Assembly (NCBI GenBank): GCA_016219925.1
Contig: JACRJU010000013.1
Location: 980-64,979, forward strand
Direction of reading: 5' to 3'
Origin: Candidatus Uhrbacteria bacterium
Lineage (GTDB): Bacteria; Patescibacteriota; Patescibacteriia; UBA9934; GWF2-40-263
Length of the DNA: 64,000 bases
In this document: positions 1,508-53,205 of the stretch, piece after piece
Layout: each line of letters opens with the position of its first letter
Numbering within the stretch: the stretch's first letter is position 1
Made by a program: the position numbers and the translations under genes
The notes under the pieces: generated by a model
Told to the model about the DNA's origin: nothing
Databases searched by the model: none
The model's input: the letters and a program-made list of their open reading frames with translations, nothing else

Positions 1508-3783
1508 GCCTTCTTTTTTCTCCCCCACGATTTTGTCTTCCCCGTGCGTTTTTTTTCGAGAAGTTCGGCGGCTTCGTCAAGGGTCAGCGTGGCGGGGTCG
1601 CGTTTTTTTCCGATCGAGGCGTTTGTTTTTCCATCGGTCACATAAGGACCGAAGCGGCCTTGTTTAATAAGGATGGTTCCTTTACTCACAGGGTCTTCAC
1701 CAAGCTCTGCGAGTGGCTGGGCCATCTGTTTTTTCAGTTCAGCCGACGTGCGCAACAATTCAACCGCTTGTTCATACGTAATCGATATGGGATCGAAGGG
1801 TTCTTTAATAGACGCGCTGACTTCGCCTGCTTTCACATAAGGACCGAACCTCCCGACCGCAACAGCGATGGCATCGCCTTGCGGCGTTTTGCCGAGATCG
1901 CGTGGGAAGGCAAGACAAGCGAGAGCTTGTTCGAGCGTCACGGATTCCGCATTCATGCCTTTGAGAAGCGAGGCGCTTTTTGGTTTTGGCTTTTTGTCTT
2001 TTTTATCTTGTTCCGAGTATTCGCCGACTTGTACAAACGCTCCGAACCGACCCGTTCTAACAATGACCGGTAGGGCGGTTTGTGGATCTGTGCCAAGGGT
2101 CCGATCGGGCATGATATCTTCTCGGTTCAGTTCTTTCGTTTTGCTTTCGAGATTTTGATGAAAGGGTTGATAAAACTGTTCGAGCATCGGGGCCCACTCG
2201 ATGGTTCCTTCTTCCACATCGTCCAGATTTTTTTCCATCTTTGCTGTGAAGGCGTAGTCGACGATGTTTTGAAAATGTTTGACCAAAAGATCCGTGACGA
2301 TAAGAGCGATGTCCATCGGGAAGAGTTTTTTGTTTTCATCACGTTCCACATAGCCGCGTTCGATGATCGTGCTGATGGTTGGAGCATAGGTGGACGGCCG
2401 ACCAATGCCAAATTCTTCGAGCGCTTTGACGAGTGTGGCGTCCGAGTAGCGTGCCGGAGGTTCGGTGAAGTGTTGGTTGGGAACGATCTCTTTTGTGGCA
2501 ACGGCATCGCCTTGATTGAGGGGAGGCAAGAGCTTTTCTTTCGTGGCTTGATAGACTTTCATGAATCCATCGAATACGACTGTGCTTCCGTTGGCTCGGA
2601 AAAGATACAGGTGTGCCAGAAGATCGACGGCGGTGCGCTCCAGCACAGCTGGAGGAAGCTGTGAAGCGAGCGCGCGGCGCCAGATGAGTTCATAAAGTTT
2701 GGCATCGCGAGGTTCCAGCGTGCCTTTCATCTGATCGGGCGTCGCACTCACATCGGTTGGGCGAATGGCTTCATGTGCTTCCTGCGCGCCTTTGCGAGAA
2801 GTTTTGTATCGTTTAGCTCCGGTAGCATAACGTTTCCCGAAAGCTGATCCGATAAAGGTTTGCGCCTCGCTTAAAAATTTTTCGGCGAGGTTTAAGGAGT
2901 CGGTACGCATGTAAGTGATGCGGCCGGTTTCGTAGAGCTTCTGGGCGAGCGCCATCGTTTGCTTGGCAGAAAAACCCAGCTTGGTATTCGCATCAATTTG
3001 CAAACTAGACGTGGTGAACGGCGGTGGTGGCGCTTTGGTCATCTCTTTCTTTTCGACGGCTGTCACCGTAGCCTTTTTGCCGACAAGATCATCCACGATT
3101 TGCTGGGCCTGCGCTTGTGTTTTGATATCTAGCTTGTCCAGTTTTTTGTCACCGATGGCGGCGAGTTTTGCGGGGAAACTCACACCGGACTTATCAAAGA
3201 GCGCATCGATCGTCCAGAATTCATCAATTTTAAACGCTTCGCGTTCACGTTCGCGTTCGACAATGAGTCGCATCGCGACTGACTGCACACGCCCGGCCGA
3301 AAGGCCGTAGCGCACCTTCTGCCACAAAAACGGCGAGAGCTCATACCCCACGAGCCGATCCAACACCCGTCGGGCCTGCTGAGCGTTCACCACGTTCATA
3401 TTGATCTCGCGAGGATGCGCGACGGCTTCTTCAATCGCCGAGCGAGTGATTTCATGAAAGGTGATGCGCTTGGCTTCTTTGGGATCAAGCCCGATGACTT
3501 GCGCAACGTGCCAGGCAATTGCTTCTCCTTCGCGATCTTCATCCGTTGCCAGAAGAATGTCCTCGGATTTTTTCGCGGCGGCCTTGAGTTCGGTGACATG
3601 TTTTTTGCTGTCGGTGGGAATGGTGTAAGTTGGCTCAAATCCATGCTCCACATCCACGCCGATTTTGCTCTTCGGCAAATCGCGCACATGCCCAAACGAA
3701 GAAAGGACAGTAAAATCCTTCCCAAGAAATTTGGAAATGGTTTTGGCTTTTGTAGGAGACTCGACAATGAGAAGTTTGGGCAT
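1504..3783 (-). CDS. topA: DNA topoisomerase I
   Basis: N-terminal TOPRIM (MPKLLIVESPTKAKTISKFLGKDFTVLSSFGHVRDLP). Type IA core with active-site Tyr region (ITYMRTDS). C-terminal repeated GRFGPYV zinc-ribbon-like repeats. 759 aa. Confidence 0.95.
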   Translation of the reverse strand: MPKLLIVESPTKAKTISKFLGKDFTVLSSFGHVRDLPKSKIGVDVEHGFEPTYTIPTDSKKHVTELKAAAKKSEDILLATDEDREGEAIAWHVAQVIGLDPKEAKRITFHEITRSAIEEAVAHPREINMNVVNAQQARRVLDRLVGYELSPFLWQKVRYGLSAGRVQSVAMRLIVEREREREAFKIDEFWTIDALFDKSGVSFPAKLAAIGDKKLDKLDIKTQAQAQQIVDDLVGKKATVTAVEKKEMTKAPPPPFTTSSLQIDANTKLGFSAKQTMALAQKLYETGRITYMRTDSLNLAEKFLSEAQTFIGSAFGKRYATGAKRYKTSRKGAQEAHEAIRPTDVSATPDQMKGTLEPRDAKLYELIWRRALASQLPPAVLERTAVDLLAHLYLFRANGSTVVFDGFMKVYQATKEKLLPPLNQGDAVATKEIVPNQHFTEPPARYSDATLVKALEEFGIGRPSTYAPTISTIIERGYVERDENKKLFPMDIALIVTDLLVKHFQNIVDYAFTAKMEKNLDDVEEGTIEWAPMLEQFYQPFHQNLESKTKELNREDIMPDRTLGTDPQTALPVIVRTGRFGAFVQVGEYSEQDKKDKKPKPKSASLLKGMNAESVTLEQALACLAFPRDLGKTPQGDAIAVAVGRFGPYVKAGEVSASIKEPFDPISITYEQAVELLRTSAELKKQMAQPLAELGEDPVSKGTILIKQGRFGPYVTDGKTNASIGKKRDPATLTLDEAAELLEKKRTGKTKSWGRKKKA

Positions 3784-5438: not shown

Positions 5439-6806
5439 CTAAGCAGAGACGGAGCGCGCGATGCGAATGTTAAGGCGAATGGGGTTGCCGTCGAGTTTAA
5501 ACGTTTCGAACAGGCGGTTGTTGAGATACCGAATATAGCTGACGTTGAGCGCATCGGTGCGTTTGGCTTTGATGATGAGATCGAATTCGAGGGGGGCGAT
5601 GCTTGTTTGTTTGATGCCAAGGATTTTTGGAATTTGAGGGCCGAAGCCTTTTTTGGGAGTGTGATGAATGGTGGCCTCGCGGATGAAGGCGGCGAGGGCT
5701 TTTTCATCCAGCCATTGATGACGATTATGATCCACACGATTAATCATCTCATAGATATTTCGGACACGCTGTTTGGTCAGAGCCGAGACAAAAATGACTG
5801 GTGCCATCTGCAAGAAGGGGATGGACGCCGCGATGTATTCGCGATAACGGTTCATGGTCGTGGTCGTTTTATCTTCTATGAGATCCCATTTGTTGGCCAC
5901 AACAATAACCCCAGACTTGGAGTCTTTGAGAAATCCTGCAAGCGTTTTTTCTTGAACGCCGATCGGCTCGGAAGCATCAATCACCAACAGAGTGACGTCC
6001 GCGTTTCTAACGACCACCTCATTGCGTTTCACGGCCTCCGCTTCCAGTCCACCCGCTTTTTTGACTTTGGTATTTTTACGCATCCCCGCGGTGTCGATGA
6101 AAATATAATTGCGGTCATTCACACGAACGAGAATGTCGTTGGGTTCGCGTGTGGTGTGCGCGATGGGACTCGTGATGAAGCGTTCTTCGCCAATGAGCGC
6201 GTTGAGAAGCGTTGATTTGCCGACGTTGGGTTTCCCGATCACCGCCACGCGCGTTGCTTGGATTTTTTCTGAAGTGACCGGTGGGGTGCCGGCCTTTTCG
6301 AGTGCCTCGAAAATAAGTTCAAGCAAATCTCCAATGCCAGAACCTCGCGTTGCAGAAACCGCGATAGGAGCGGGGAGGCCCGAGAGCGGCCAGGATTCGC
6401 CCATGACCGCGTGGCGCTCGGCGGGCTTCTCGGCCTTATTAGCAACCACAATCACCGGACACCCAGATTTTTTTAGCGACATCGAGAGGTTTCTTTCTTG
6501 GGGGAGCGGTCCGGTTTTGGCATCCACCACAAAGAGAATCAACTGGGCCTGTTTGATTGCGAGTTTTGCTTGTTTGACGGTATTGCGTTCGATTTCGTCT
6601 TGTTCGGTGACATCCAACCCGCCGGTATCAACCAGGCGGAAAATTCTTCCTCGCCACAGACATTCGCCCTCGTTACGGTCGCGCGTTGTTCCCGCGATAT
6701 CCGAAACCAGCGCTTTGGGTTTTTCAAGCAAACGGTTGAACAACGTGGATTTTCCGACGTTTGTGCGTCCGATGATCGCAACCGTCGGGATTTTTTGGTC
6801 AGACAT
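5439..6806 (-). CDS. der: ribosome-biogenesis GTPase Der (EngA), tandem GTPase domains
   Basis: Two G-domains (GRTNVGKSTLFN and GKPNVGKSTLLN) plus a KH-like C-terminus. Start is set at ATG 6804-6806 (MSDQKIPTVAIIGR), matching the Der N-terminus. The track ORF extends to 6884. Confidence 0.88.
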   Translation of the reverse strand: MSDQKIPTVAIIGRTNVGKSTLFNRLLEKPKALVSDIAGTTRDRNEGECLWRGRIFRLVDTGGLDVTEQDEIERNTVKQAKLAIKQAQLILFVVDAKTGPLPQERNLSMSLKKSGCPVIVVANKAEKPAERHAVMGESWPLSGLPAPIAVSATRGSGIGDLLELIFEALEKAGTPPVTSEKIQATRVAVIGKPNVGKSTLLNALIGEERFITSPIAHTTREPNDILVRVNDRNYIFIDTAGMRKNTKVKKAGGLEAEAVKRNEVVVRNADVTLLVIDASEPIGVQEKTLAGFLKDSKSGVIVVANKWDLIEDKTTTTMNRYREYIAASIPFLQMAPVIFVSALTKQRVRNIYEMINRVDHNRHQWLDEKALAAFIREATIHHTPKKGFGPQIPKILGIKQTSIAPLEFDLIIKAKRTDALNVSYIRYLNNRLFETFKLDGNPIRLNIRIARSVSA

Positions 6807-38823: not shown

Positions 38824-39723
38824 TTACTGAGGATTTGAGCCACCCCCTGTGCTGGCCGCGGGCGCGGGCGTTGTGACCGTTGTGTTGCCGGCTGTGCAGT
38901 TGTTGCTACAGGTCGGGTTCACGACAGCCGCGTTGCTGATGCCACCCGCGGGGATCGCGGAGGCACTGCTCGCAGCCGCGCCTGCCGGAATCGGCGAGGC
39001 GTTGCCCGTGTGGAAAGTCCCGATTCCCGTCGTGACCATCCACCACAGGCCGAACAGGAGGGCCAGTAGGATGATGATCGGCGCGGCGAAGGCGAGCGCC
39101 GAGAGGCCGCGGTCGGCCCAAGTGCGCCAGCGCGGCGGAGCCGGAGGGGCCGGTGGGGCAACCGGGCCGCCAGGTGCAGGCGGGGCACCGGGAGCCGGTC
39201 CCAGCACGATGTGCATCGGGATCGGCGGCGGCGGTGCGATGTGCACCGGCACGGGCACAACCGCCACGGCTGGGGCACCAAGCGCCGGAGGGGCCGGAGG
39301 CGCAGGCGGTGCTCCGGGTGCGATGGGCGGGGGCGCGACCGGCGGGAGAGCCGGAGGCGCAGGGGGTGCGCCAGGAACGGGCGGAGGCGCAGGCAGCGGC
39401 GGCGGTGCGGCCGCGAGAGCGACCACGTCCACGTCCTGCCCAGCCACCTCGGTCAGTAGGTCCGTTGTGCGGACCACGCCGAGATGGTAGTGGCCGGGCG
39501 CCTGGAAGCCCCGCGTGCTCCTGAAGGTCAGGTTCGAGGGGTGTCCGGCACCCACCGCACCGACGCGCGCGGTGTCGCGATCAATGACGATCGGGGCACC
39601 GGCCGGCGTGACGAGGAGCCGAAACTCCGCGCCTGGGGGGTTGTCCGGAGGAGTGACCTCCAACCGGACGGCGAGAGCCGAGCCCTCGACGATGTTGGGG
39701 GGCGCGTGAAGCGTAAACGCCAT
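38824..39723 (-). CDS. GC-rich Pro/Ala-rich membrane protein (N-terminal globular domain, PAPP-repeat linker, C-proximal TM)
   Basis: ATG at 39721-39723 with a perfect AGGAGG SD upstream. About 70 % GC. Long (PAPPx)n tract. TM LSALAFAAPIIILLALLFGLWWMV. Long antisense ORFs here are GC artefacts. Confidence 0.6.
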   Translation of the reverse strand: MAFTLHAPPNIVEGSALAVRLEVTPPDNPPGAEFRLLVTPAGAPIVIDRDTARVGAVGAGHPSNLTFRSTRGFQAPGHYHLGVVRTTDLLTEVAGQDVDVVALAAAPPPLPAPPPVPGAPPAPPALPPVAPPPIAPGAPPAPPAPPALGAPAVAVVPVPVHIAPPPPIPMHIVLGPAPGAPPAPGGPVAPPAPPAPPRWRTWADRGLSALAFAAPIIILLALLFGLWWMVTTGIGTFHTGNASPIPAGAAASSASAIPAGGISNAAVVNPTCSNNCTAGNTTVTTPAPAASTGGGSNPQ

Positions 39724-39867
39724 GGTTTCCTCCTGAATGGGTTTTTGTGACTCCTTACCAACGTGATAAAGAGCGTCCGAAACCGTTTCGGAACCCGAAA
39801 AAATAACACAAAAAAACGATTTTGTCAATCGTTTATACAAAAAACCCGCGATTTTCGCGGGTTTTTT

Positions 39868-41881: not shown

Positions 41882-42940
41882 TCAGCGGCTGAAGGGCCAG
41901 TGGCCGGCCGGTTTCTTGTCTTCGGTCTTGGCCATTGGTTTGTCTTTGACTTTGCCTTTCGGCTTGCCGGGCTTGTCTGTCTTGCCCGGCTTGCTCGGCG
42001 CAGTCGGCGGAGTCGCGTCGGCGGAAGGCTTGGTCTTGCCGTTGAATAAATCGACGAGCGAGATGTTCTGGACGGTGCGGTTGGGATCGTAGGCGCTGTG
42101 CTGGCCTTCGATGGCCTTCGCTCCGCCCTTTGGCATCTGTTCGTACAGGAACAGCGCGACCCCCTTGTAGTAGGGAGCGGCCGCCTGCAGGAAGCGCGTG
42201 ATCTGCGTCGCGCTCACCGATTTGCCGTAGGTCATGCCCACCGGGACGAGCGTGCACTCGTGTCCGGGGTGGTAGGCGCGCAGGGCATCGAACTGCCCCT
42301 GCGTGTAGGCGAGTGCGTTCTGCGGCGACATGTCGCGGAACAGCTTCCAGTAGCTCTGCGGCAGGAAGAAGTCCGCGTACTTGAGCGCGACGGCCCAAGG
42401 AACGTCTTTCCACTGCATGAGGTGCGGGAAGCTGGAGAAGGCGAGGATCGTCCACGGACGGGCATCCACCTGTTTGCGCAGTTGCGCGAATAGACGCTCC
42501 CAACGAGCTTTGGACTTGCCAAACAGCCCGAGGTCGTCGACGACGACGCCGTCAGCGCCCATCTCGAGCGTCCGAACGGCGAGCTGGATGGATTCGTCCA
42601 CGCTCGTGTCCGTCTTGAGCCGCGCAGTGAAGTACGAGTACACGCGCATCCCCTCCCCGTGGAATGCCGCAATGAGATCGCGCGAGATCGCCTCACGCCA
42701 CGTGCGACCCACGCGTGTGCCCCAGCTTCCGCCGTCGTGCGATTTCACGATGACGAAGTGGTAGCCAGCGTCGTGCACCGCCTTGGCGTAGGCCTTCGCC
42801 TGTTCGCCCTCGGTGTTGCCGACACTGCTCTTGTAGGTGAAGACTCCCAGGCCGCTCATGTGCGGCGGCAGGGTCTTTGGCTCGGCTTGCGCAGGAAGTG
42901 CGAGCGTGGCGAGCAGGACGAGGACGAAGGTGCGAACCAT
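41882..42940 (-). CDS. GC-rich secreted TIM-barrel glycoside-hydrolase-like protein (GH114/GHL-type) with a Lys/Pro-rich C-terminal tail
   Basis: Signal peptide MVRTFVLVLLATLALPAQA. TLEMGADGVVVDDLGLFG resembles the GH114/GHL motif. About 62 % GC. Located immediately downstream of the ssrA 3' end. Confidence 0.55.
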   Translation of the reverse strand: MVRTFVLVLLATLALPAQAEPKTLPPHMSGLGVFTYKSSVGNTEGEQAKAYAKAVHDAGYHFVIVKSHDGGSWGTRVGRTWREAISRDLIAAFHGEGMRVYSYFTARLKTDTSVDESIQLAVRTLEMGADGVVVDDLGLFGKSKARWERLFAQLRKQVDARPWTILAFSSFPHLMQWKDVPWAVALKYADFFLPQSYWKLFRDMSPQNALAYTQGQFDALRAYHPGHECTLVPVGMTYGKSVSATQITRFLQAAAPYYKGVALFLYEQMPKGGAKAIEGQHSAYDPNRTVQNISLVDLFNGKTKPSADATPPTAPSKPGKTDKPGKPKGKVKDKPMAKTEDKKPAGHWPFSR

Positions 42941-43059: not shown

Positions 43060-43450
43060 TGGTGGAGCTGGGGGGAATCGAACCCCCGTGTGGTAAGGCA
43101 TGGCCGTACGATGGTTCCAAGCTCATTCCCGCTTTGATCATCGCGCGCTTGAAGCGGGACAAAATGCGCGCGAGGGTGCCGGTCGCAACATCTTGACCGC
43201 GCGAGATCGGCGACCGCGCAGTCCAGCTCGAAGATATGACATTCGTGTTGAGCTATCGAGCTTCGCTCAGACGAACGGCTCTACAAACCCTTAGGCGAGA
43301 GCTGGGGCAAAAGAAGGAACGCGCAAAGCGTCCTTGATTTTCGCCATGACGTTGTTGGCAAGTATCGTCTTGCATGGAGAGATTTACGAGGTCCCATACG
43401 GCCTCGGCTTGATCACACGGTCAGGGACTCCCATCGAAACCGATCAGCCC
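43060..43450 (-). ncRNA. ssrA: tmRNA (transfer-messenger RNA)
   Basis: 5' GGGGCUGAUCGGUUUCGAUGGGAGU... and 3' ...CGGGGGUUCGAUUCCCCCCAGCUCCACCA (T-arm plus acceptor plus CCA), read on the minus strand. Predicted tag ORF GCC AAC AAC GUC AUG GCG AAA AUC AAG GAC GCU UUG CGC GUU CCU UCU UUU GCC CCA GCU CUC GCC UAA gives ANNVMAKIKDALRVPSFAPALA. A terminator hairpin follows at 43030-43059. Confidence 0.85.
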
Positions 43451-43562
43451 CAGGCGTCTCACTCTACGCATTTTTTTTCTTTCTGTCAATCAAACTGCCG
43501 CGCTTGTTCACACCCGCGCGTGATCAATTTTTGAAAATCCTGTATTATAACTATAACGTTCT

Positions 43563-47713: not shown

Positions 47714-48346
47714 ATGTCCGCGAATCATCTCAAAACACTATCCGCAGGTTGGCAAACGATTTTGATGTTTGGTTTGTTGGGACTCGTGTTTGCGCTTATC
47801 GTCTCTTTTGTTCAGCCGCTTCAGTATGGTTCAACGGCGCGCCTCTTGATTTTGCAAGACGTGGGTTCTTCGGTGGATGCGTATACGGCTTCGCGCTCCG
47901 AGGAGCGTATCGCGGAAAATCTTTCCACGATTATTTACACGAGTACTTTTTTGGATCAGGTGCTCTCGGCCGGGTTTGATATTCGCGCGAATACGTTTCC
48001 TACGGATTCGGCCAATCGCCGTCGGGCTTGGCATAAGGCTGTGACCGCAACGGTTTCGCGCGGTTCGGGATTGCTTACGATTTCCGCCTATGACCAGGAT
48101 GTGAGGCAGGCCGAGCAGGTCGTTCGGGCTGTGGCTTTTGTTTTGACCGGACGGGTGGGGGAGTTTACTTCTGGGGGAAATGTGCAAGTTCGATTGATTG
48201 ATGCTCCGCTCAATTCGCGCTGGCCGGTCCGGCCAAATATTTTTGCAAATACCCTGACCGGATTGATTTTGGGAGGATTTGTTGGGATAGCCGTTGTCTT
48301 GGTTCAAACGGAAAAGATTCGTCGGAGGCATCAACTGCACGGATAA
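47714..48346 (+). CDS. Wzz/YveK-like polysaccharide chain-length-determinant family protein (short form)
   Basis: ATG 47714 (MSANHLKTLSAGWQTILMFGLLGLVFALIVSFVQPLQYGSTARLLI). C-terminal TM. The track ORF from 47579 overlaps the upstream gene. Confidence 0.6.
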   Translation: MSANHLKTLSAGWQTILMFGLLGLVFALIVSFVQPLQYGSTARLLILQDVGSSVDAYTASRSEERIAENLSTIIYTSTFLDQVLSAGFDIRANTFPTDSANRRRAWHKAVTATVSRGSGLLTISAYDQDVRQAEQVVRAVAFVLTGRVGEFTSGGNVQVRLIDAPLNSRWPVRPNIFANTLTGLILGGFVGIAVVLVQTEKIRRRHQLHG

Positions 48347-48416
48347 TCAGTCTCATAAAAAGCCATTTTTTGACATAAAAAGCCTAAAAAGGTCTTTTTT
48401 TGTCTGTTCCCGTCTC

Positions 48417-48445
48417 TTGACATTTTTGTCTGATTATGCTACATT
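48417..48445 (+). promoter_or_regulatory. sigma70-like promoter (TTGACA, 17 nt, TACATT) driving the R1 leader
   Basis: TTGACA at 48417-48422 and TACATT at 48440-48445. AT-rich, immediately upstream of the structured leader. Confidence 0.45.
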
Positions 48446-48594
48446 GCCACGTTCAATGCTCCTTATGTGACCCGCGTTTTGAAGCGGTTTGATGTCCAGC
48501 CGGAATGCCTCCTCCTCATTCTGCGCCGGATATCAGACCACTTCAGACCGTATGGTCTGGTGTGTCCCTTAAAACATCACCAAGAACATATTTG

Positions 48595-48850
48595 GACAGA
48601 TTGGTTTCTCTCTGCACCTACGGCTTTACTTCTCTTAAGGAGATCCTTCGTCGGCCTCTGGCCTCCTCAGGATGACAAATAAAATGTTGTGTCATCCTGA
48701 AGGAGCTTGAATCGACTGAAGGATCTTACAGAATGTAAAACCGCGAGTGCAGAGAGACAACCATCCCTCCGGGGTGGCTCTGTGGCATACAGCTGAGACG
48801 GGATTTCCCCCGCTTCGGTATCGTGTGTCAGATATCCCCCGGAGGGGGAG
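48595..48850 (+). promoter_or_regulatory. structured 5' leader / repeat element R1 with an SD-sequestering stem
   Basis: Long-range inverted repeat TCTCTCTGCAC (48607-48617) with GTGCAGAGAGA (48747-48757). Nested hairpins AGATCCTTC/GAAGGATCT and CTCAGGATGACA/TGTCATCCTGAAG. CCCTCCGGGG (48765-48774) pairs with CCCCGGAGGG (48837-48846), which contains the SD GGAGGGGG 6 nt before ATG 48854. The 105-nt core 48746-48850 is repeated at 52086-52190 with one mismatch. Confidence 0.65.
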
Positions 48851-48853
48851 ACA

Positions 48854-50341
48854 ATGGAGGAAGCCATGAAGACGTTGTGCCAGTTCGTTTTCGCCGTGAG
48901 TCTGCTCGTCGGCGCCACCGCCGCGTTCGCGGCCCCCCCCAAGCCCACGGCCGACTGCGGCCTGGACAAGGACGGCGACGGTTGGTGCGTGCCGGATCCG
49001 AGCCGCACCATGCCCGACCCGGCCGACCCCAGCAAGAGCAAGCCGTTTCATCTCGGCAAGCTCGACTGCAACGACGCCGACCCGGCCGTTCACCCCGGCG
49101 CCAAGGAAATCGTCGGCAACGGGATCGACGAGGACTGTGACGGTGAAGACGCCGAAGCCCCGGCCTACGCGAAGAACTTCGGGTGCGACCCGAAGAACGC
49201 GAAGTGTTTGGCGGTCTTGGCCAAGGAGATCAAGGCGTGCGACGGCAAGACCGGCTGTGCCGTGAACTACACGGCCGGCAAGTTCGTCACCGGCTTCGGC
49301 TTCTACTTCATCGACACCGACTGCGACGGCGTGCGCGAGCTTGTCAATCAGGCCGGGAAGGACAAGCACGACGCCGAGATCGCGGCCGGGAAGCACTGCG
49401 TGCGACCCGCCGGGACGACGCATCGCCCGCACCACAAGGGGAAGGCCAAGCCGAAGTACGCCGTCGCTCCTCTCCCCGTCGATCCCACCCGGGTCGACGC
49501 GCTCGAGAAGGGAGCCGGCGAGCTCCGAGATGACGTCGACGGTCTCGATGACCGGCTCGACGACGTCGAAGAGCTCGCGGCCGACGGGGCCAAGCGCCTC
49601 GATGACCTCAACGGAGCCCTCAAGGCCGAAGCCAAGGCCCGTGAGGCCGCGGACAAGGCAGAGGCCGAGGCCCGCAAGGCCGCCGACAGCGCTCTGGGCG
49701 ACCAGATCGCGATCGTCAAGGGCCAGGCCGCGACGGCTCACCGGGTCGCCGTGGCCGCGGGCACCCGCGCCGAAGACGCCGCCTCCGCCGCCGCCGTCGC
49801 CAACAGCGCCGGCGTCAACGCGGGGTTCAACGTCGGCGTGGCTCTCAAGGGCCAGGCCGACATCCACCTGAAAAGTGGAGTGGCGCGGGGAGGCTTCGCT
49901 CCCATGCTCCTCGTCGGCGGTCACGTCGGCGCGGAGCTCCCGTCCGGGATCTACCGCCTCCTCGGCGCCGTCGGCCTCCCCTTCGAGGAAGGTCCAAGCG
50001 GCAACACCGAGCGCGGGATGTTCTGGACGGTCGGTGGCGAGACGCTCTTCAAGCTCGCCCCCGGCTCCGCGCACGCGCTCGGGCTCATCGTCCGGTACGT
50101 CGACCACGAAAGTGGTGGTGACGTCCTGGGCGTCAACGCTCGGTCGCGCGGCGGCGGAGGCGGCGTCGCGTACGAGTACGCGTCCGGCTCGGGATGGTTG
50201 CGCACCCCAGTGCACGTCAGCCTCGAAGGGGGCGGCGAGCAGTTGGGCTCCCAGGGCAGTCAGTTTCGTGCCCTGGGCAACGCCGCCTTCGCCATGCTGA
50301 CCCTCACGGTCGGTGGCGGAACCGGTGCGCTCACCCGCTAG
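48854..50341 (+). CDS. GC-rich secreted protein. Signal peptide, MopE-like Cys/Asp metal-binding-type repeat, coiled-coil, Gly-rich C-terminal domain
   Basis: Signal peptide MEEAMKTLCQFVFAVSLLVGATAAFAAP. CNDADPAVHPGAKEIVGNGIDEDCDG motif. About 68 % GC. The long antisense ORF 48692-50215 is treated as a GC artefact. Confidence 0.7.
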   Translation: MEEAMKTLCQFVFAVSLLVGATAAFAAPPKPTADCGLDKDGDGWCVPDPSRTMPDPADPSKSKPFHLGKLDCNDADPAVHPGAKEIVGNGIDEDCDGEDAEAPAYAKNFGCDPKNAKCLAVLAKEIKACDGKTGCAVNYTAGKFVTGFGFYFIDTDCDGVRELVNQAGKDKHDAEIAAGKHCVRPAGTTHRPHHKGKAKPKYAVAPLPVDPTRVDALEKGAGELRDDVDGLDDRLDDVEELAADGAKRLDDLNGALKAEAKAREAADKAEAEARKAADSALGDQIAIVKGQAATAHRVAVAAGTRAEDAASAAAVANSAGVNAGFNVGVALKGQADIHLKSGVARGGFAPMLLVGGHVGAELPSGIYRLLGAVGLPFEEGPSGNTERGMFWTVGGETLFKLAPGSAHALGLIVRYVDHESGGDVLGVNARSRGGGGGVAYEYASGSGWLRTPVHVSLEGGGEQLGSQGSQFRALGNAAFAMLTLTVGGGTGALTR

Positions 50342-50869
50342 GCCTCTGCGCGGCGCGGCTCGCCTCCTCCCGAGTGCGCGCCGTCATCACGCCGGTTGTC
50401 CCCCGACCGGCACTGGGTGACCCCGCCTCCCGCGCAGTTCGACTTCGGTCGGCTGTGCGGGGGCGGGGAAACCTGGACCTCTCATCAGCTTTTGCTGATC
50501 CTGGCTCCACACACCTACTCGTGTGGAGACCTCGTACGAGAAGTTGAGTCATTTATTGCCCGAGCTTGTCGAGGGCTGTAGATGGATCATTCGACTTCTG
50601 ATATGAGGAGAACGAACATCTTTGCCATACTGTCCTGTCATCCTGAGCGAAGCGAAGGATCTCGCGTTTCTAGAGATTCTTCAGTCACTGCTGATGGAGT
50701 TATATCGACCGAAGGATCCCAAGGTGTAAAGCTGGGGAAAGCAGGATGATTGATCGCCACCCGCTGGTGTTCAGCCATCCTGTTTTCCCCGGACCCTGAC
50801 CCATGGTGGGTTCGGGGGCGGATTGGACAGAGAGAAGTCCACGGGGAGGCCCGTGGCAGGAGGAGATCC

Positions 50870-51757
50870 ATGAACCGTACCACCACCACGTCGTTCGTCT
50901 TCGCCGTACTCGCGGCCTTCGCCCTCACCGCCTGCGGAGGCGTCCAGGCCGATTGGGACCAGCCCGACGGCACCTCGGCCGATGCGGGCGCCAAGCCCGA
51001 CAGCGAGTCCAGCGGCGGCGAGGTCTCGACCACCGCGACGTGCAACCCGGCGATCCAGGACTGCGACGGCGACGGACGCATCGGCCAGGCCGACTGCGGC
51101 CCGTACGACCCGAGCGTCTACGCCGGTGCCCCCGAGCTGTGCGACGGCAAGGACAACAACTGCGACGGTCACACCGACGAGGGATGCCCTGCCAAGCCGG
51201 CCGCAGCGGCCGACTCCGACGGGGACGGCTACCCGGACGGGCCGCAGGACTGCGCTCCGTCCAACCCATCGGTGCACCCGGGCGCGACCGAGATCTGCGA
51301 CGGCGTCGACAACAACTGCGACGGCGTCACCGACGAGGGATGCTCGGCGGCCACAATCCCGCCCGGCAACGAGGCGAAGCTCTCGTGTACGTTCACCTTC
51401 ACGACGGACCGGCAACGGACCGTCAACGTGCAGGCGTACGACACCAAGGCCGACCTCGGCAAGTGGTGGGACTCGAGCCAGACCGGCTCGGGCAAGTCCA
51501 TCACGGTCGAGCTCCCGCAGGTGCCCAAGGACATCTGCGGGTTCCGCCTCAACACGGCGGAAGGCAACCCGCCGACCGACTGGTTCTGCGAGGGCAACGG
51601 CTCCACAGCCAACCTCGACCCGTCGACCAGCGTGAGCTGTGTCTTCGACGGGAAGTCCGCGACGAAGTCCGGGCTCAAGACTTGGTCGGCCCCCGGCGGA
51701 ACCAACGCCGGCTGCAGCGCCGTCTGGGTCGTGACCCCCAGCGCCAACTGCTGGTAG
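50870..51757 (+). CDS. GC-rich lipoprotein with two MopE-like repeats and a C-terminal beta-rich domain (paralog)
   Basis: AGGAGA RBS. Lipobox MNRTTTTSFVFAVLAAFALTAC. DCGPYDPSVYAGAPELCDGKDNNCDGHTDEGC and DCAPSNPSVHPGATEICDGVDNNCDGVTDEGC. C-terminal LGKWW...WSAPGG motif shared with 52207-53205. Confidence 0.7.
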   Translation: MNRTTTTSFVFAVLAAFALTACGGVQADWDQPDGTSADAGAKPDSESSGGEVSTTATCNPAIQDCDGDGRIGQADCGPYDPSVYAGAPELCDGKDNNCDGHTDEGCPAKPAAAADSDGDGYPDGPQDCAPSNPSVHPGATEICDGVDNNCDGVTDEGCSAATIPPGNEAKLSCTFTFTTDRQRTVNVQAYDTKADLGKWWDSSQTGSGKSITVELPQVPKDICGFRLNTAEGNPPTDWFCEGNGSTANLDPSTSVSCVFDGKSATKSGLKTWSAPGGTNAGCSAVWVVTPSANCW

Positions 51758-51877
51758 GTCACAACGATCCCTTCTGCCCACTGCGTCTTCCAACCGGTGG
51801 GCGCTTTTTTTTGTCAGACATTTGTGACTTTTAGTCAAAAATTGCCGTTTTTATTACAAAATACGCGTTTGGATGGC

Positions 51878-51906
51878 TTGACAAATCGGCTATTTTATGA
51901 TATATT
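51878..51906 (+). promoter_or_regulatory. strong sigma70-like promoter (TTGACA, 17 nt, TATATT) driving the R2 leader
   Basis: TTGACA at 51878-51883, a 17-nt spacer, and TATATT at 51901-51906. An AT-rich block inside the GC-rich island. Confidence 0.55.
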
Positions 51907-51934
51907 AATCTGTTCCCAAAATGAGGGAATGGAT

Positions 51935-52195
51935 CCGGTTTCTCTCTGCACTAAGTTCTTAAACTCGTTACTTTGTCATGTTGTGTCTTTGCGAGGAGGC
52001 CGGTCGAATGACCGGACGACGAAGCAAACTCGAGATTGCTTCGGTCGCTTGAACCTCCCTCGCAATGACAACAGTTTGAGACTTGAGTGCAGAGAGACAA
52101 CCATCCCTCCGGGGTGGCTCTGTGGCATACAGCTGAGACGGGATTTCCCCCGCTTCGGTACCGTGTGTCAGATATCCCCCGGAGGGGGAGTAGTT
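51935..52195 (+). promoter_or_regulatory. structured 5' leader / repeat element R2, a copy of R1
   Basis: TCTCTCTGCAC (51941-51951) pairs with GTGCAGAGAGA (52093-52103). The core 52086-52190 is 104/105 identical to 48746-48850. Here an additional AGGAGG SD lies 8 nt upstream of ATG 52207. Confidence 0.65.
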
Positions 52196-52206
52196 AGGAG
52201 GAAAAG

Positions 52207-53205
52207 ATGAAGAAGCTCCTGTCCGCTTTCGCCGCGAGCCTTCTGCTCGTCGGCGCAACCGTCGTGCTGAACGCCTGTGAGGGCGTTTCGGCCACCTACA
52301 CCACGCCCGAGCCGACCATCGAGTCGGTCGACGCGGGACCGTCGTCCGTCGACGCGGCCAGCGCCGACAAGGGTTCGTCCGTCGACGCCGCTCCGGCGCC
52401 CGACGCGGTCACGTCGACGCACCCGTGCGTCGACAACGACCACGACGGGTACTGCGTCGTCAACGCCAAGGGCGAGCCAGTCGACTGCAACGACTCGCCG
52501 CTCGACAAGGACGGCGACGGGATTGTGGACGGATTCCCGATCCACCCCGGCGCCGCCGAGATCTGCAACATGATCGACGACAACTGCGACGGCCACACCG
52601 ACGAGGGCCTCGAGAAGGTCCTCAACTACGTGGACGGCGACAACGACGGCTACGGCGACATCAACGACCCGGGTGCGGAGACCTGCCTCGCGCAGGGATT
52701 CGTCACCGACAACGGGGACTGCGACGACAACGCCGCCAACATTCACCCCGGCGCCCCGGACAAGCCCAACGACGGCATCGACTCCGACTGCGACGACGAG
52801 TCGCAGAAGGAGAATGCTCCGCCCACGGAGACGGCCGTCCATGGCGTCCTGACCGTGCAGGTCCCCAACAAGGCGGCACTGGTGCTCTCGTACCAGTTCG
52901 CCAAGTCGGAAGATCTGCTCGGCAAGTGGTGGGAGCCGGACGTCGCCAAGGCAGAGAACGGCGATGAGGTAGGCACGTCGTTCGTGATGTCCAAGGACAT
53001 CGCGTTCGTGCGCCTCAACGTCACGATCGGCACCGGCGACGCGGCCACCTGGCTGTGCTCCGGCTCGGGCAACGACGCGGCGCTCCTCAAGGACGCCAAG
53101 GTGAAGCTCGAGTTCGGCGGCGGCGCGCTCGTCGGCGAACCCTACCTGTGGTCCGCCCCAGAAGGCGGCTGCAGCGTCGTCTTCCCGATCGCCTACCTCG
53201 AGTAG
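52207..53205 (+). CDS. GC-rich lipoprotein with MopE-like repeats and the shared C-terminal domain (paralog)
   Basis: Lipobox MKKLLSAFAASLLLVGATVVLNAC. CNDSPLDKDGDGIVDGFPIHPGAAEICNMIDDNCDGHTDEG. C-terminus LLGKWWEPD...LWSAPEGGCSVVF. Confidence 0.72.
   Translation: MKKLLSAFAASLLLVGATVVLNACEGVSATYTTPEPTIESVDAGPSSVDAASADKGSSVDAAPAPDAVTSTHPCVDNDHDGYCVVNAKGEPVDCNDSPLDKDGDGIVDGFPIHPGAAEICNMIDDNCDGHTDEGLEKVLNYVDGDNDGYGDINDPGAETCLAQGFVTDNGDCDDNAANIHPGAPDKPNDGIDSDCDDESQKENAPPTETAVHGVLTVQVPNKAALVLSYQFAKSEDLLGKWWEPDVAKAENGDEVGTSFVMSKDIAFVRLNVTIGTGDAATWLCSGSGNDAALLKDAKVKLEFGGGALVGEPYLWSAPEGGCSVVFPIAYLE

What the first reader, a model, noticed from the sequence alone, without database searches (positions are those of the whole stretch)
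48746..48853. Duplicated ~105-nt structured leader in which an upstream anti-SD (CCCUCCGGGG) pairs with the ribosome-binding site: candidate riboswitch or RNA thermometer
The identical core occurs before two island genes: GAGUGCAGAGAGACAACCAUCCCUCCGGGGUGGCUCUGUGGCAUACAGCUGAGACGGGAUUUCCCCCGCUUCGGUA[U/C]CGUGUGUCAGAUAUCCCCCGGAGGGGGAG at 48746-48850 and 52086-52190, with 104/105 identity.

Its structure has three levels.
- A 10-bp perfect pairing between CCCUCCGGGG and CCCCGGAGGG. In copy 1 this contains the only SD (GGAGGGGG, 6 nt before ATG 48854).
- Four short hairpins between the two arms (CUGU…ACAG, GGG-AUUU-CCC, CCG-CUU-CGG, UAUC…GAUA).
- An outer 11-bp helix, UCUCUCUGCAC with GUGCAGAGAGA, enclosing a further nested hairpin in the 5' part.

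Both copies lie downstream of good sigma70-like promoters (48417-48445 and 51878-51906), so they are transcribed as ~400-nt 5' UTRs. SD sequestration by a distant anti-SD is the standard architecture of translational riboswitches and RNA thermometers. I do not recognise it as a known class.
Basis: seen in the sequence. Interest (0 to 1): 0.7.

Follow-up and report, generated by a model that had tools for sequence, protein, structure and literature searches.

The report
Conserved structured mRNA leader in Uhrbacteria
The duplicated segment is a real, evolutionarily conserved folded RNA leader placed just before the ribosome-binding sites of secreted cysteine-rich surface-protein genes in an uncultured 'Candidatus Uhrbacteria' bacterium, but it does not hide the ribosome-binding site as proposed, so it is a new but probably ordinary kind of leader element of unknown function.

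Summary
The repeat is real: 48745-48850 and 52085-52190 are 105/106 identical, and a 15-nt upstream strand is also shared. It folds as a long hairpin (P1) followed by a GC-clamped stem-loop (P2, CCCUCCGGGG:CCCCGGAGGG). There is no Rfam, phage or plasmid match.

The window is from Candidatus Uhrbacteria (candidate phyla radiation). About nine other lineages have orthologous leaders, in front of the same ~490-aa secreted MopE-motif protein and its paralogs. These carry a domain of the same design at the same place: C-run/G-run arms whose central pairs covary (1 of 20,000 arm permutations reaches the observed pairing), with G·U pairs that fit only the + strand RNA.

The proposed mechanism fails.
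- Both window copies, and every homolog with sequence up to the start codon, have a canonical SD (GGAGGA-N4-ATG here) downstream of P2.
- Gene 1 most likely starts at ATG 48866, not 48854.
- P2 is predicted to stay folded from 10 to 75 °C.
- No unpaired nucleotides are conserved across lineages.

Best reading (about 0.4): a cis-acting leader module that shapes mRNA processing or stability and keeps the RBS exposed. A factor-responsive switch remains possible. In passing, a strongly covarying upstream hairpin (48477-48547) carries a CUCCUCCU anti-SD-like loop core invariant in all leaders found.

The parts
48417..48445 (+). Promoter of leader 1 (TTGACA-17-TACATT, with TG extended -10)
   Evidence: The same TTGACA...TG.TA..T promoter is present in all 12 leaders long enough to include it.
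48477..48547 (+). H1: conserved hairpin at the 5' end of leader 1, with a 9-nt loop CCUCCUCCU (48508-48516) whose 8-nt core CUCCUCCU is invariant. Absent from leader 2.
   Evidence: RNAalifold on 11 leaders gives 31 pairs, 17 of them with compensatory changes, and an invariant loop core. blastn shows about 74% identity to relatives.
48603..48762 (+). P1 of copy 1: a long hairpin. The base helix is GGUUUCUCUCUGCAC (48603-48617) with GUGCAGAGAGACAACC (48747-48762). The interior is an unrelated palindromic insert.
   Evidence: (I2).
48745..48850 (+). Repeat copy 1 (P1 3' strand plus the whole P2 domain)
   Evidence: (family D16).
48765..48846 (+). P2 domain of copy 1. The closing helix is 48765-48774 with 48837-48846. 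The internal irregular hairpin P4 spans about 48783-48830.
   Evidence: The arms covary across lineages.
48856..48868 (+). True RBS of gene 1: SD GGAGGA 48856-48861, 4-nt spacer, ATG 48866
   Evidence: Alignment with copy 2. Homologs start MK... after their own SD. Predicted about 0.9 unpaired in the P1-P2-RBS fragment.
51878..51906 (+). Promoter of leader 2 (TTGACA-17-TATATT, with TG)
51937..52102 (+). P1 of copy 2. It has the same base helix (51937-51951 with 52087-52102) and a different palindromic interior.
   Evidence: (I5).
52085..52190 (+). Repeat copy 2
   Evidence: D16.
52105..52186 (+). P2 domain of copy 2 (arms 52105-52114 and 52177-52186)
52197..52209 (+). RBS of gene 2: GGAGGA 52197-52202, 4-nt spacer, ATG 52207

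Best explanation
The duplicated segment is the 3' module of a conserved, transcribed 5' leader of secreted MopE-motif (cell-surface type) protein genes in Candidatus Uhrbacteria. The module has two parts. P1 is a long hairpin whose apex tolerates unrelated palindromic inserts. P2 is a very stable GC-clamped stem-loop that ends 9-10 nt (1-33 nt in relatives) upstream of an exposed canonical SD.

I propose that it acts in cis and largely constitutively.
- P2 locks a C-rich (anti-SD-like) strand and a G-rich (SD-like) strand against each other, so that neither can interfere with the real RBS.
- P2 also forms a stable 5'-proximal structure that protects the mRNA from decay.
- P1 may be an RNase III-type processing site that would leave P2 at the mature 5' end.

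The near-identity of the two window copies reflects recent leader-specific gene conversion between paralogous leaders, not a recent whole-gene duplication.

Shown: the repeat, the structure, the promoters, the true RBS, conservation, covariation and thermal stability in silico. Inferred: stabilisation or insulation, processing and gene conversion.
For: Structure:
- Both copies fold far better than shuffles (z = -8.6 and -7.2).
- P2 forms in the MFE of 13 of 16 homologous leaders.

Conservation:
- The gene order AI-2E transporter, PDZ protease, Wzz/GNVR, long leader, ~490-aa MopE protein, MopE paralog is kept in relatives at 38-48% protein identity.
- Each relative has a strong TTGACA/TG-TAnnnT promoter and a 184-515-nt leader.
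- Each has a domain with arms C3-6-x-G4 ... C3-5-x'-G3-6 just before the SD.

Covariation:
- The central arm pairs vary as UCC:GGA, UC:GA, GUC:GAC, GGUC:GACC, AGUC:GACU and UUGA:UUGA.
- Matched arms give 39 pairs against 24.8 for permuted partners; 1 of 20,000 permutations reaches the observed value.
- RNAalifold on six relatives finds 9 of 25 pairs with compensatory changes.
- G·U pairs in L028 fit only the + strand RNA.

RBS: the true SD lies outside P2, and in copy 1 it is predicted open in the P1-P2-RBS fragment.

Concerted evolution:
- The two proteins share only MopE motifs, yet their leaders are 99% identical.
- A second genome (L049) has its own pair of copies, 93% identical over 112 nt and 2.9 kb apart.
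- Further P2-like copies precede paralogs in L006 and L082.

Specificity: the descriptor hits only these two sites (plus one hit inside a coding region) in the 64-kb window, and about 2.7 per 128 kb in 1.1 Mb of control loci.
Against: - No transcript ends, half-lives or expression data exist, so stabilisation, insulation and RNase III processing are all inference by analogy.
- The four C and G runs are almost invariant while the central pairs vary freely. This hints at a constraint beyond helix stability, such as alternative local hairpins or a sequence-specific partner.
- The flanks of the 5' arm can pair in most lineages (for example CCGUCU:AGACGG, GCGUCA:UGACGU, CCACAG:CUGUGG). The local-hairpin form lies within ±11 kcal/mol of the closed form and is favoured in 5 of 16 leaders. 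That would fit a switch.
- A covariance model built from one subfamily does not detect the window copies. Equivalence of the window domain with the more distant ones therefore rests on position, design and the bridging relative L028, not on a significant model score.
- In whole-leader folds, SD accessibility differs between homologs and no pairing partner is consistent. The copy 1 SD, for example, is then mostly paired with a CUCCUU near the 5' end.
Confidence: 0.4

Rival explanations
1. A regulated switch. The P2 domain would alternate between the closed arm:arm helix and two local hairpins, with the 5'-arm hairpin extended by its flanks. A protein, small RNA or ligand would drive the change and so control translation or decay of the surface-protein mRNAs.
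For: - Each arm is self-complementary (C-run, x, G-run), and the runs are nearly invariant.
- Flank pairing is present in most lineages with different sequences. There is one compensatory change between the close relatives L093 and L094. Fisher combination of per-lineage shuffle tests gives roughly p = 0.04 to 0.001, depending on which representative is used (my calculation).
- The two forms are near-isoenergetic in the L003-type leaders, with ddG of -0.6 to -1.9 kcal/mol.
- Paralogous leaders within a genome are homogenised in at least two genomes, the window's and L049's. This would suit a shared trans-acting factor.
Against: - In the window copies the closed form is favoured by about 11 kcal/mol, because the 5' flank is held in the very stable P1.
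- No unpaired nucleotides are conserved across lineages, and the interior varies from 33 to 65 nt.
- There is no consistent link between either form and SD pairing.
- No terminator follows the domain.
- The flank segments were chosen by eye, so the statistics are soft.
Confidence: 0.25
2. One reading: an SD-sequestering translational riboswitch or RNA thermometer, in which CCCUCCGGGG masks the SD GGAGGGGG.
For: - The G-rich arm contains GGAGG 8 nt upstream of an in-frame ATG at 48854.
- That arm is about 90% paired.
Against: - A canonical GGAGGA-N4-ATG lies downstream in both copies.
- Copy 2 has no ATG at the position matching 48854.
- Every homolog with sequence up to its start codon has its SD after the 3' arm, and the proteins start MK.
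- P2 is predicted to stay folded up to 75 °C.
- No Rfam match.
Confidence: 0.03
3. A non-functional, recently duplicated segment or a MITE-like mobile repeat.
For: - The copies are 99% identical with sharp boundaries.
- P1 resembles terminal inverted repeats, and its interior carries palindromic repeat fragments also seen elsewhere.
- Public short-read contigs break inside the repeat.
Against: - There are only two copies in 64 kb, both at the same position relative to a promoter and an RBS.
- Equivalent domains occur at the orthologous position in about nine other lineages, with covariation.
- No match in phages, plasmids or viral contigs.
Confidence: 0.05
4. A DNA-level element: two inverted copies of a protein-binding site (CCCC-x-GGGG) acting as operators downstream of the promoter.
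For: - The arms are GC-rich near-palindromes about 60-80 bp apart.
- The descriptor matches on both strands.
Against: - L028 keeps pairing only through G·U (UUGA with UUGA). That is not an inverted repeat at the DNA level and would give A·C mismatches on the other strand.
- The central bases change freely as long as complementarity is kept.
- The interior also forms a covarying hairpin.
Confidence: 0.05

Closest known systems
mRNA-stabilising structured 5' leaders of abundant envelope or secreted proteins (E. coli ompA 5' UTR, Lactobacillus slpA leader, B. thuringiensis cryIIIA STAB-SD, B. subtilis hbs leader; the first three from my own knowledge, hbs from PMC5737220)
   Same: - A long leader behind a strong promoter.
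- Very stable stem-loops upstream of a strong SD predicted open in the P1-P2-RBS fragment of copy 1.
- Downstream genes that encode secreted or surface proteins.
- An SD-like G-rich tract upstream of the real SD.
   Different: - No sequence or structural homology.
- The 5' end is unmapped, and P2 is not at the primary 5' end unless P1 is processed.
- The SD-like tract is base-paired rather than free as in STAB-SD.
- The host is a candidate-phyla-radiation bacterium with no experimental system.
SD-sequestering translational riboswitches built from GC-rich hairpins (for example guanidine-II/mini-ykkC, preQ1-II/III, SAM-II)
   Same: - A 5' UTR location next to the RBS.
- C-rich and G-rich strands that pair.
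- Possible alternative hairpins.
   Different: - The real SD is outside the structure.
- There are no conserved loop or junction nucleotides, such as the ACGR loops of guanidine-II.
- No Rfam hit even at E<=10.
RNA thermometers (ROSE, fourU)
   Same: A hairpin in a 5' UTR that contains a GGAGG-like sequence.
   Different: Thermometers use short, imperfect helices that hold the true SD and melt at 30-42 °C. Here the helix is 10 bp (9 G-C pairs and one U-A) plus an extension, is predicted intact at 75 °C, and excludes the true SD.
Distant anti-SD elements such as the UCCCC motif of the S. aureus icaR 3' UTR that pairs with the SD (PMC3868564)
   Same: The upstream hairpin H1 displays an invariant CUCCUCCU loop core complementary to the GGAGGA/GAGGAG SDs, 300-500 nt downstream.
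   Different: This concerns H1, not the reported segment. The pairing is untested, and H1 is absent from leader 2.
RNase III-processed leader hairpins (phage lambda N leader, T7 R1.1, rnc and pnp leaders; own knowledge)
   Same: P1 is a long, nearly perfect double-stranded hairpin directly 5' of a stable stem-loop.
   Different: No cleavage data exist, and the presence of rnc in this genome was not checked.

Membership tests
Any Rfam family (release 15) | Covariance-model score at or above the family's gathering threshold | tested here: not met
   The only gathering-level hits in the window are one tmRNA and two tRNAs. At E<=10 over 48300-52300 there are only weak, unrelated matches.
Translational (SD-sequestering) riboswitch | The functional SD or start codon is part of the regulated helix | tested here: not met
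   The true SD GGAGGA-N4-ATG lies 9-10 nt 3' of the helix in both window copies. It also lies after the helix in every homolog with sequence up to the start codon.
Translational (SD-sequestering) riboswitch | A conserved aptamer core: invariant unpaired nucleotides in junctions or loops across lineages | tested here: not met
   Across lineages only the C and G runs of the arms are conserved. The interior varies in sequence and in length (33-65 nt).
Translational (SD-sequestering) riboswitch | Ligand binding with a change of structure | not testable with these tools
   Needs in-line probing or ITC.
RNA thermometer (ROSE/fourU type) | A helix holding the SD that melts in the physiological temperature range | tested here: not met
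   The mean probability of the ten arm pairs is 0.90-1.00 from 10 to 75 °C. Accessibility of the true SD is essentially flat with temperature.
Conserved structured cis-leader RNA (generic) | Same position relative to promoter and orthologous gene in several lineages | tested here: met
   Conserved gene order, promoter and leader in L003-L007, L028, L049, L082, L087, L089 and L090-L094.
Conserved structured cis-leader RNA (generic) | Base pairs supported by compensatory change | tested here: met
   Arm permutation test: 1 of 20,000. RNAalifold: 9 of 25 pairs and 4 of 25 pairs with changes on both sides.
Conserved structured cis-leader RNA (generic) | Window copies recovered by a covariance model built from relatives only | tested here: not met
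   Model R1, built from six L003, L090 and L093-type sequences, gives no full-length hit on the window copies. The model is narrow, with an effective 2.2 sequences.
mRNA 5' stabiliser (ompA / slpA / STAB-SD type) | A stable stem-loop at or near the 5' end of the mature transcript that prolongs its half-life | not testable with these tools
   No 5'-end or half-life data. Only the stability of P1 and P2 and the predicted open SD of copy 1 in the P1-P2-RBS fragment are shown.
MITE / REP-like mobile repeat | Many copies at unrelated loci, with terminal inverted repeats and target-site duplications | tested here: inconclusive
   Two copies in 64 kb, both in leaders. No hits in phages, plasmids or viral contigs. 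The rest of the 282-kb contig and the genome could not be read.
Diversity-generating retroelement TR/VR pair (considered because a bAvd-like gene sits next to the leader in relatives) | Repeat pair differing at adenines, with VR inside a target gene and a nearby reverse transcriptase | tested here: not met
   The single difference is T/C, and both copies are non-coding leaders. The bAvd-like gene is absent from the window. A reverse transcriptase was not searched for.

The most novel reading that the evidence does not exclude
The whole leader could be a previously undescribed regulatory RNA specific to candidate-phyla-radiation bacteria. In this reading, a covarying 5' hairpin presents an invariant anti-SD mimic (CUCCUCCU) to the distant RBS. 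The GC-clamped P2 domain toggles between closed and local-hairpin forms in response to a ligand or protein. Together they would set production of the cell-surface MopE-motif proteins, making this a new riboswitch-like class in organisms where almost no RNA regulation is known.
Probability: 0.12. Interest if true: 0.7.

Novelty: new member of a known kind. Interest (0 to 1): 0.38.

Why it matters
Candidate-phyla-radiation bacteria are uncultured, and I know of almost no described RNA-level gene control in them. My one full-text search found no paper that mentions both Uhrbacteria and riboswitches. This leader is a conserved, covarying RNA structure in front of what look like major secreted or surface proteins, in a locus that also holds Wzz-like, Wzy-like and glycosyltransferase genes. 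If it controls mRNA life or translation, it would be an entry point for studying how these episymbiont-type cells regulate their surface. As it stands it is a narrowly distributed leader motif of unknown function, with about 20 instances found. The attractive SD-sequestration mechanism does not hold.

Tried and rejected
- Rfam at gathering thresholds and at E<=10: nothing relevant.
- Exact 21-mer from the core in viral contigs and in GTDB representative genomes: no hit. The window's own genome is apparently not among the representatives.
- blastn of the core against relatives' leaders: no significant match. Only the upstream hairpin H1 is recognisably conserved in sequence.
- H1-based degenerate pattern in genomes: 79 hits. 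Most are in Alphaproteobacteria MAGs and look unrelated; I did not examine them beyond using them as control loci. Three Uhrbacteria MAGs and one unclassified MAG were kept.
- A stricter H1 pattern in metagenomes: only 3 loci.
- MAFFT alignment of all 16 P2 domains was structurally poor, so I compared the arms by hand and with a permutation test.
- Covariance model R1 from one subfamily did not recover the window copies, with filters on or off.
- Whole-leader folding to find a consistent partner for the SD: the partners differ between homologs, so nothing can be concluded.
- Flank pairing (the alternative hairpin) is individually weak, with p = 0.008-0.9 per sequence.
- DGR, MITE, DNA-operator and thermometer readings were considered and rejected for the reasons given under rival explanations and the membership tests.
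- NCBIfam gives no name for any of the five MopE-motif proteins.
- Phage and plasmid collections: no match.

Full report
**Observation**

The window contains a 106-nt direct repeat at 48745-48850 and 52085-52190 with one T/C difference (family D16). A 31-nt probe from it occurs exactly twice, against zero expected by chance.

A further 15-nt strand, GGTTTCTCTCTGCAC, is shared at 48603 and 51937. It pairs with GTGCAGAGAGACAACC at the start of the repeat. The roughly 130 nt between these two strands is unrelated in the two copies.

Folding gives the same picture for both copies:
- P1 is a long hairpin.
- P2 is a second domain closed by CCCUCCGGGG:CCCCGGAGGG.
- The folds have z-scores of -8.6 and -7.2 against dinucleotide shuffles.

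**The ribosome-binding site**

Aligning the two leaders shows that the repeat ends at ...GGGGGAG. After 5-6 unrelated bases, both copies read GGAGGA-N4-ATGAAGA (coordinates).
- In copy 1 this is SD 48856-48861 with ATG 48866.
- In copy 2 it is SD 52197-52202 with ATG 52207.

From 48866 the product starts MKTLCQFVFAVSLLVGATAAFA, which looks like a normal signal peptide. Homologous proteins likewise start MK... directly after their own SD. The ATG at 48854 has no counterpart in copy 2. So the G-rich arm of P2 is not 'the only SD', and most likely it is not the SD at all.

**Source and context**

The 495-aa product is identical to an NCBI protein of 'Candidatus Uhrbacteria bacterium' on a 282-kb contig. 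The downstream genes all carry the PF11617 'putative metal-binding (MopE)' cysteine-rich motif. They lie between Wzz/GNVR-like, Wzy-like and glycosyltransferase genes.

The GC-rich 'island' is not a recent arrival. The same gene order (AI-2E transporter, PDZ protease, Wzz/GNVR, long intergenic leader, ~490-aa MopE protein, MopE paralog) recurs in relatives whose proteins are 38-48% identical.

**Related leaders**

I collected leaders from contigs that encode homologs and from a pattern search for the conserved upstream hairpin.

All 12 leaders long enough to include the promoter have a near-consensus TTGACA/TG-TAnnnT promoter. Their leaders are 184-515 nt long.

Each leader ends with a domain of the same design as the finding's P2: a 5' arm C3-6-x-G4, an interior hairpin of 33-65 nt, and a 3' arm C3-5-x'-G3-6. 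In every leader with sequence up to the start codon, a canonical SD and start follow; where the scan placed the SD, it begins 1-33 nt after the 3' arm.

After I had defined this descriptor, it found three further instances in front of additional paralogs in L006, L049 and L082. In the window it hits only the two reported sites plus one hit inside a coding region. In 1.1 Mb of unrelated control loci it hits about 2.7 times per 128 kb.

**Evidence that the structure is real RNA**

The central arm bases covary across lineages: UCC:GGA, UC:GA, GUC:GAC, GGUC:GACC, AG(G)UC:GACU and UUGA:UUGA.
- Pairing each 5' arm with its own 3' arm gives 39 central pairs.
- Pairing with permuted partners gives 24.8 on average.
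- Only 1 of 20,000 permutations reaches the observed value.

Other support:
- RNAalifold on six relatives predicts the arm helix plus the interior hairpin, with 9 of 25 pairs showing compensatory change.
- L028 keeps two arm pairs only as G·U. This fits the + strand RNA and not a DNA inverted repeat.
- P2 forms in the unconstrained MFE of 13 of 16 leaders.

One negative result should be stated. A covariance model built only from the L003, L090 and L093-type sequences does not recover the window copies. Equivalence of the most distant variants therefore rests on position, design and bridging sequences, not on a model score.

**Tests of the proposed mechanism**

- *Thermometer:* the arm helix is predicted to remain formed (probability 0.90-1.00) from 10 to 75 °C. 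In the P1-P2-RBS fragment of copy 1 the true SD stays about 90% unpaired and GGAGGGGG stays about 90% paired throughout. The copy 2 SD is about 35% unpaired, also without a temperature trend.
- *Riboswitch:* there is no Rfam hit. Only the C and G runs are conserved between lineages, so no conserved pocket is apparent.
- *SD sequestration:* the SD is outside the helix in both window copies and in every homolog with sequence up to the start codon.

**Duplication**

The two downstream proteins share only short MopE-motif matches, while the leaders are 99% identical with sharp boundaries. This points to leader-specific homogenisation (gene conversion) rather than recent gene duplication.

The same pattern occurs independently in another Uhrbacteria genome (L049). 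There, two consecutive genes carry copies of the P1 3' strand plus P2 plus SD that are 93% identical over 112 nt. Each copy has its own promoter and its own P1 5' strand.

The P1 interiors share 15-19-nt exact matches with repeat-like sequences in relatives' loci. By eye, they resemble palindromic repeats such as GTCATCCTGA... and GTCATTGCGAGG...CCTCGCAATGAC that sit in hairpin loops of relatives' leaders. Hairpin apices therefore seem to tolerate such inserts.

**Interpretation**

I commit to a cis-acting, largely constitutive leader module. P2 pairs an anti-SD-like C-rich strand with an SD-like G-rich strand. This leaves the real RBS free and provides a very stable structure next to it. P1 may be a processing site. 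This is inference by analogy with the stabilising leaders of ompA, slpA, cryIIIA and hbs (PMC5737220 for hbs; the others from my own knowledge). Confidence is about 0.4.

The main rival is a factor-responsive switch (about 0.25).
- The C and G runs are nearly invariant.
- Each arm can fold on itself.
- The flanks of the 5' arm can pair in most lineages with different sequences (combined p roughly 0.04-0.001, from hand-chosen segments).
- The two forms lie within ±11 kcal/mol of each other.
- In the window copies, however, the closed form wins by about 11 kcal/mol.

**In passing**

The best-conserved part of leader 1 is not the reported segment. It is a hairpin at about 48477-48547 with 31 consensus pairs, 17 of which show compensatory changes. 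Its loop core CUCCUCCU is invariant in all leaders found and is a perfect anti-SD mimic. Leader 2 lacks it. Whether it pairs with the SD 300-500 nt downstream cannot be tested here.

**Verdict**

This is a genuine, previously undescribed but narrowly distributed structured leader. The SD-sequestration, thermometer and classical riboswitch readings are not supported. Novelty: a new member of a known kind. Interest: moderate.

Noticed in passing
window 48477-48547 (loop 48508-48516): Hairpin H1 at the 5' end of leader 1. It has 31 consensus pairs, 17 with compensatory changes across 11 leaders. The 8-nt loop core CUCCUCCU is invariant in all leaders found and is complementary to the GGAGGA/GAGGAG SDs downstream. 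Leader 2 lacks it. It is not in Rfam.
   Followed up: partly
window 48854 vs 48866: The longest ORF of gene 1 starts at ATG 48854 (MEEAMKTL...), and the public protein record uses this 495-aa form. Alignment with copy 2 and with homologs indicates the real start is ATG 48866 (MKTL...), 4 nt after GGAGGA.
   Followed up: yes
window 50787-50818 and 50859-50873: The next MopE gene has its own GC-clamped leader hairpin, CCCCGGACCCUGACCCAUGGUGGGUUCGGGGG. The same hairpin occurs in the second-gene leaders of L090, L093 and L094. Its likely start is ATG 50871, after AGGAGGAG, not the longer ORFs listed from 50750 or 50803.
   Followed up: partly
window 48640-48730, 50630-50720, 51990-52075; L003, L005, L007, L028, L073, L090, L094: Short palindromic repeat elements sit inside hairpin loops of these leaders and differ between genomes. 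Their ends are TGTCATCCTGA.../...TCAGGATGACA and GTCATTGCGAGG.../...CCTCGCAATGAC. They look like small mobile palindromic inserts.
   Followed up: partly
L049 (reverse-complement coordinates about 2650-3090 and 5540-5990): A second Uhrbacteria genome has its own pair of near-identical leader 3' modules (93% over 112 nt) in front of two consecutive genes. This mirrors the window and suggests recurrent homogenisation of paralogous leaders.
   Followed up: partly
L003 5147-5515, L092 53-427 (called genes); uncalled ORF-like stretches in L005 about 2100-2460 and L089: In some relatives a small four-helix-bundle gene (Pfam 23S_rRNA_IVP, with a weak bAvd hit) flanked by inverted repeats sits between the Wzz/GNVR gene and the leader. 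The L005 and L089 cases I recognised by eye from the sequence only. The window has no such gene. No link to a diversity-generating retroelement was seen.
   Followed up: no
L087, L089, L006 and L092, upstream of the leader promoter: Terminator-like hairpins whose loops read GAGGAGGAG, the complement of the H1 loop, lie just upstream of the promoter in several relatives. The window does not have one.
   Followed up: no
L001 and L002 (Logan contigs of SRR12113407): Public short-read contigs that carry the two genes both begin inside the 106-nt repeat. The repeat therefore breaks assemblies, and copies could be under-represented in MAGs.
   Followed up: no
window 38824-39840 (-) and 41882-42940 (-): Two further GC-rich ORFs (63-65% GC in a genome of about 51% GC) with no Pfam hit flank the infC, smpB and tmRNA region. 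The tmRNA is at 43060-43451 (-).
   Followed up: no
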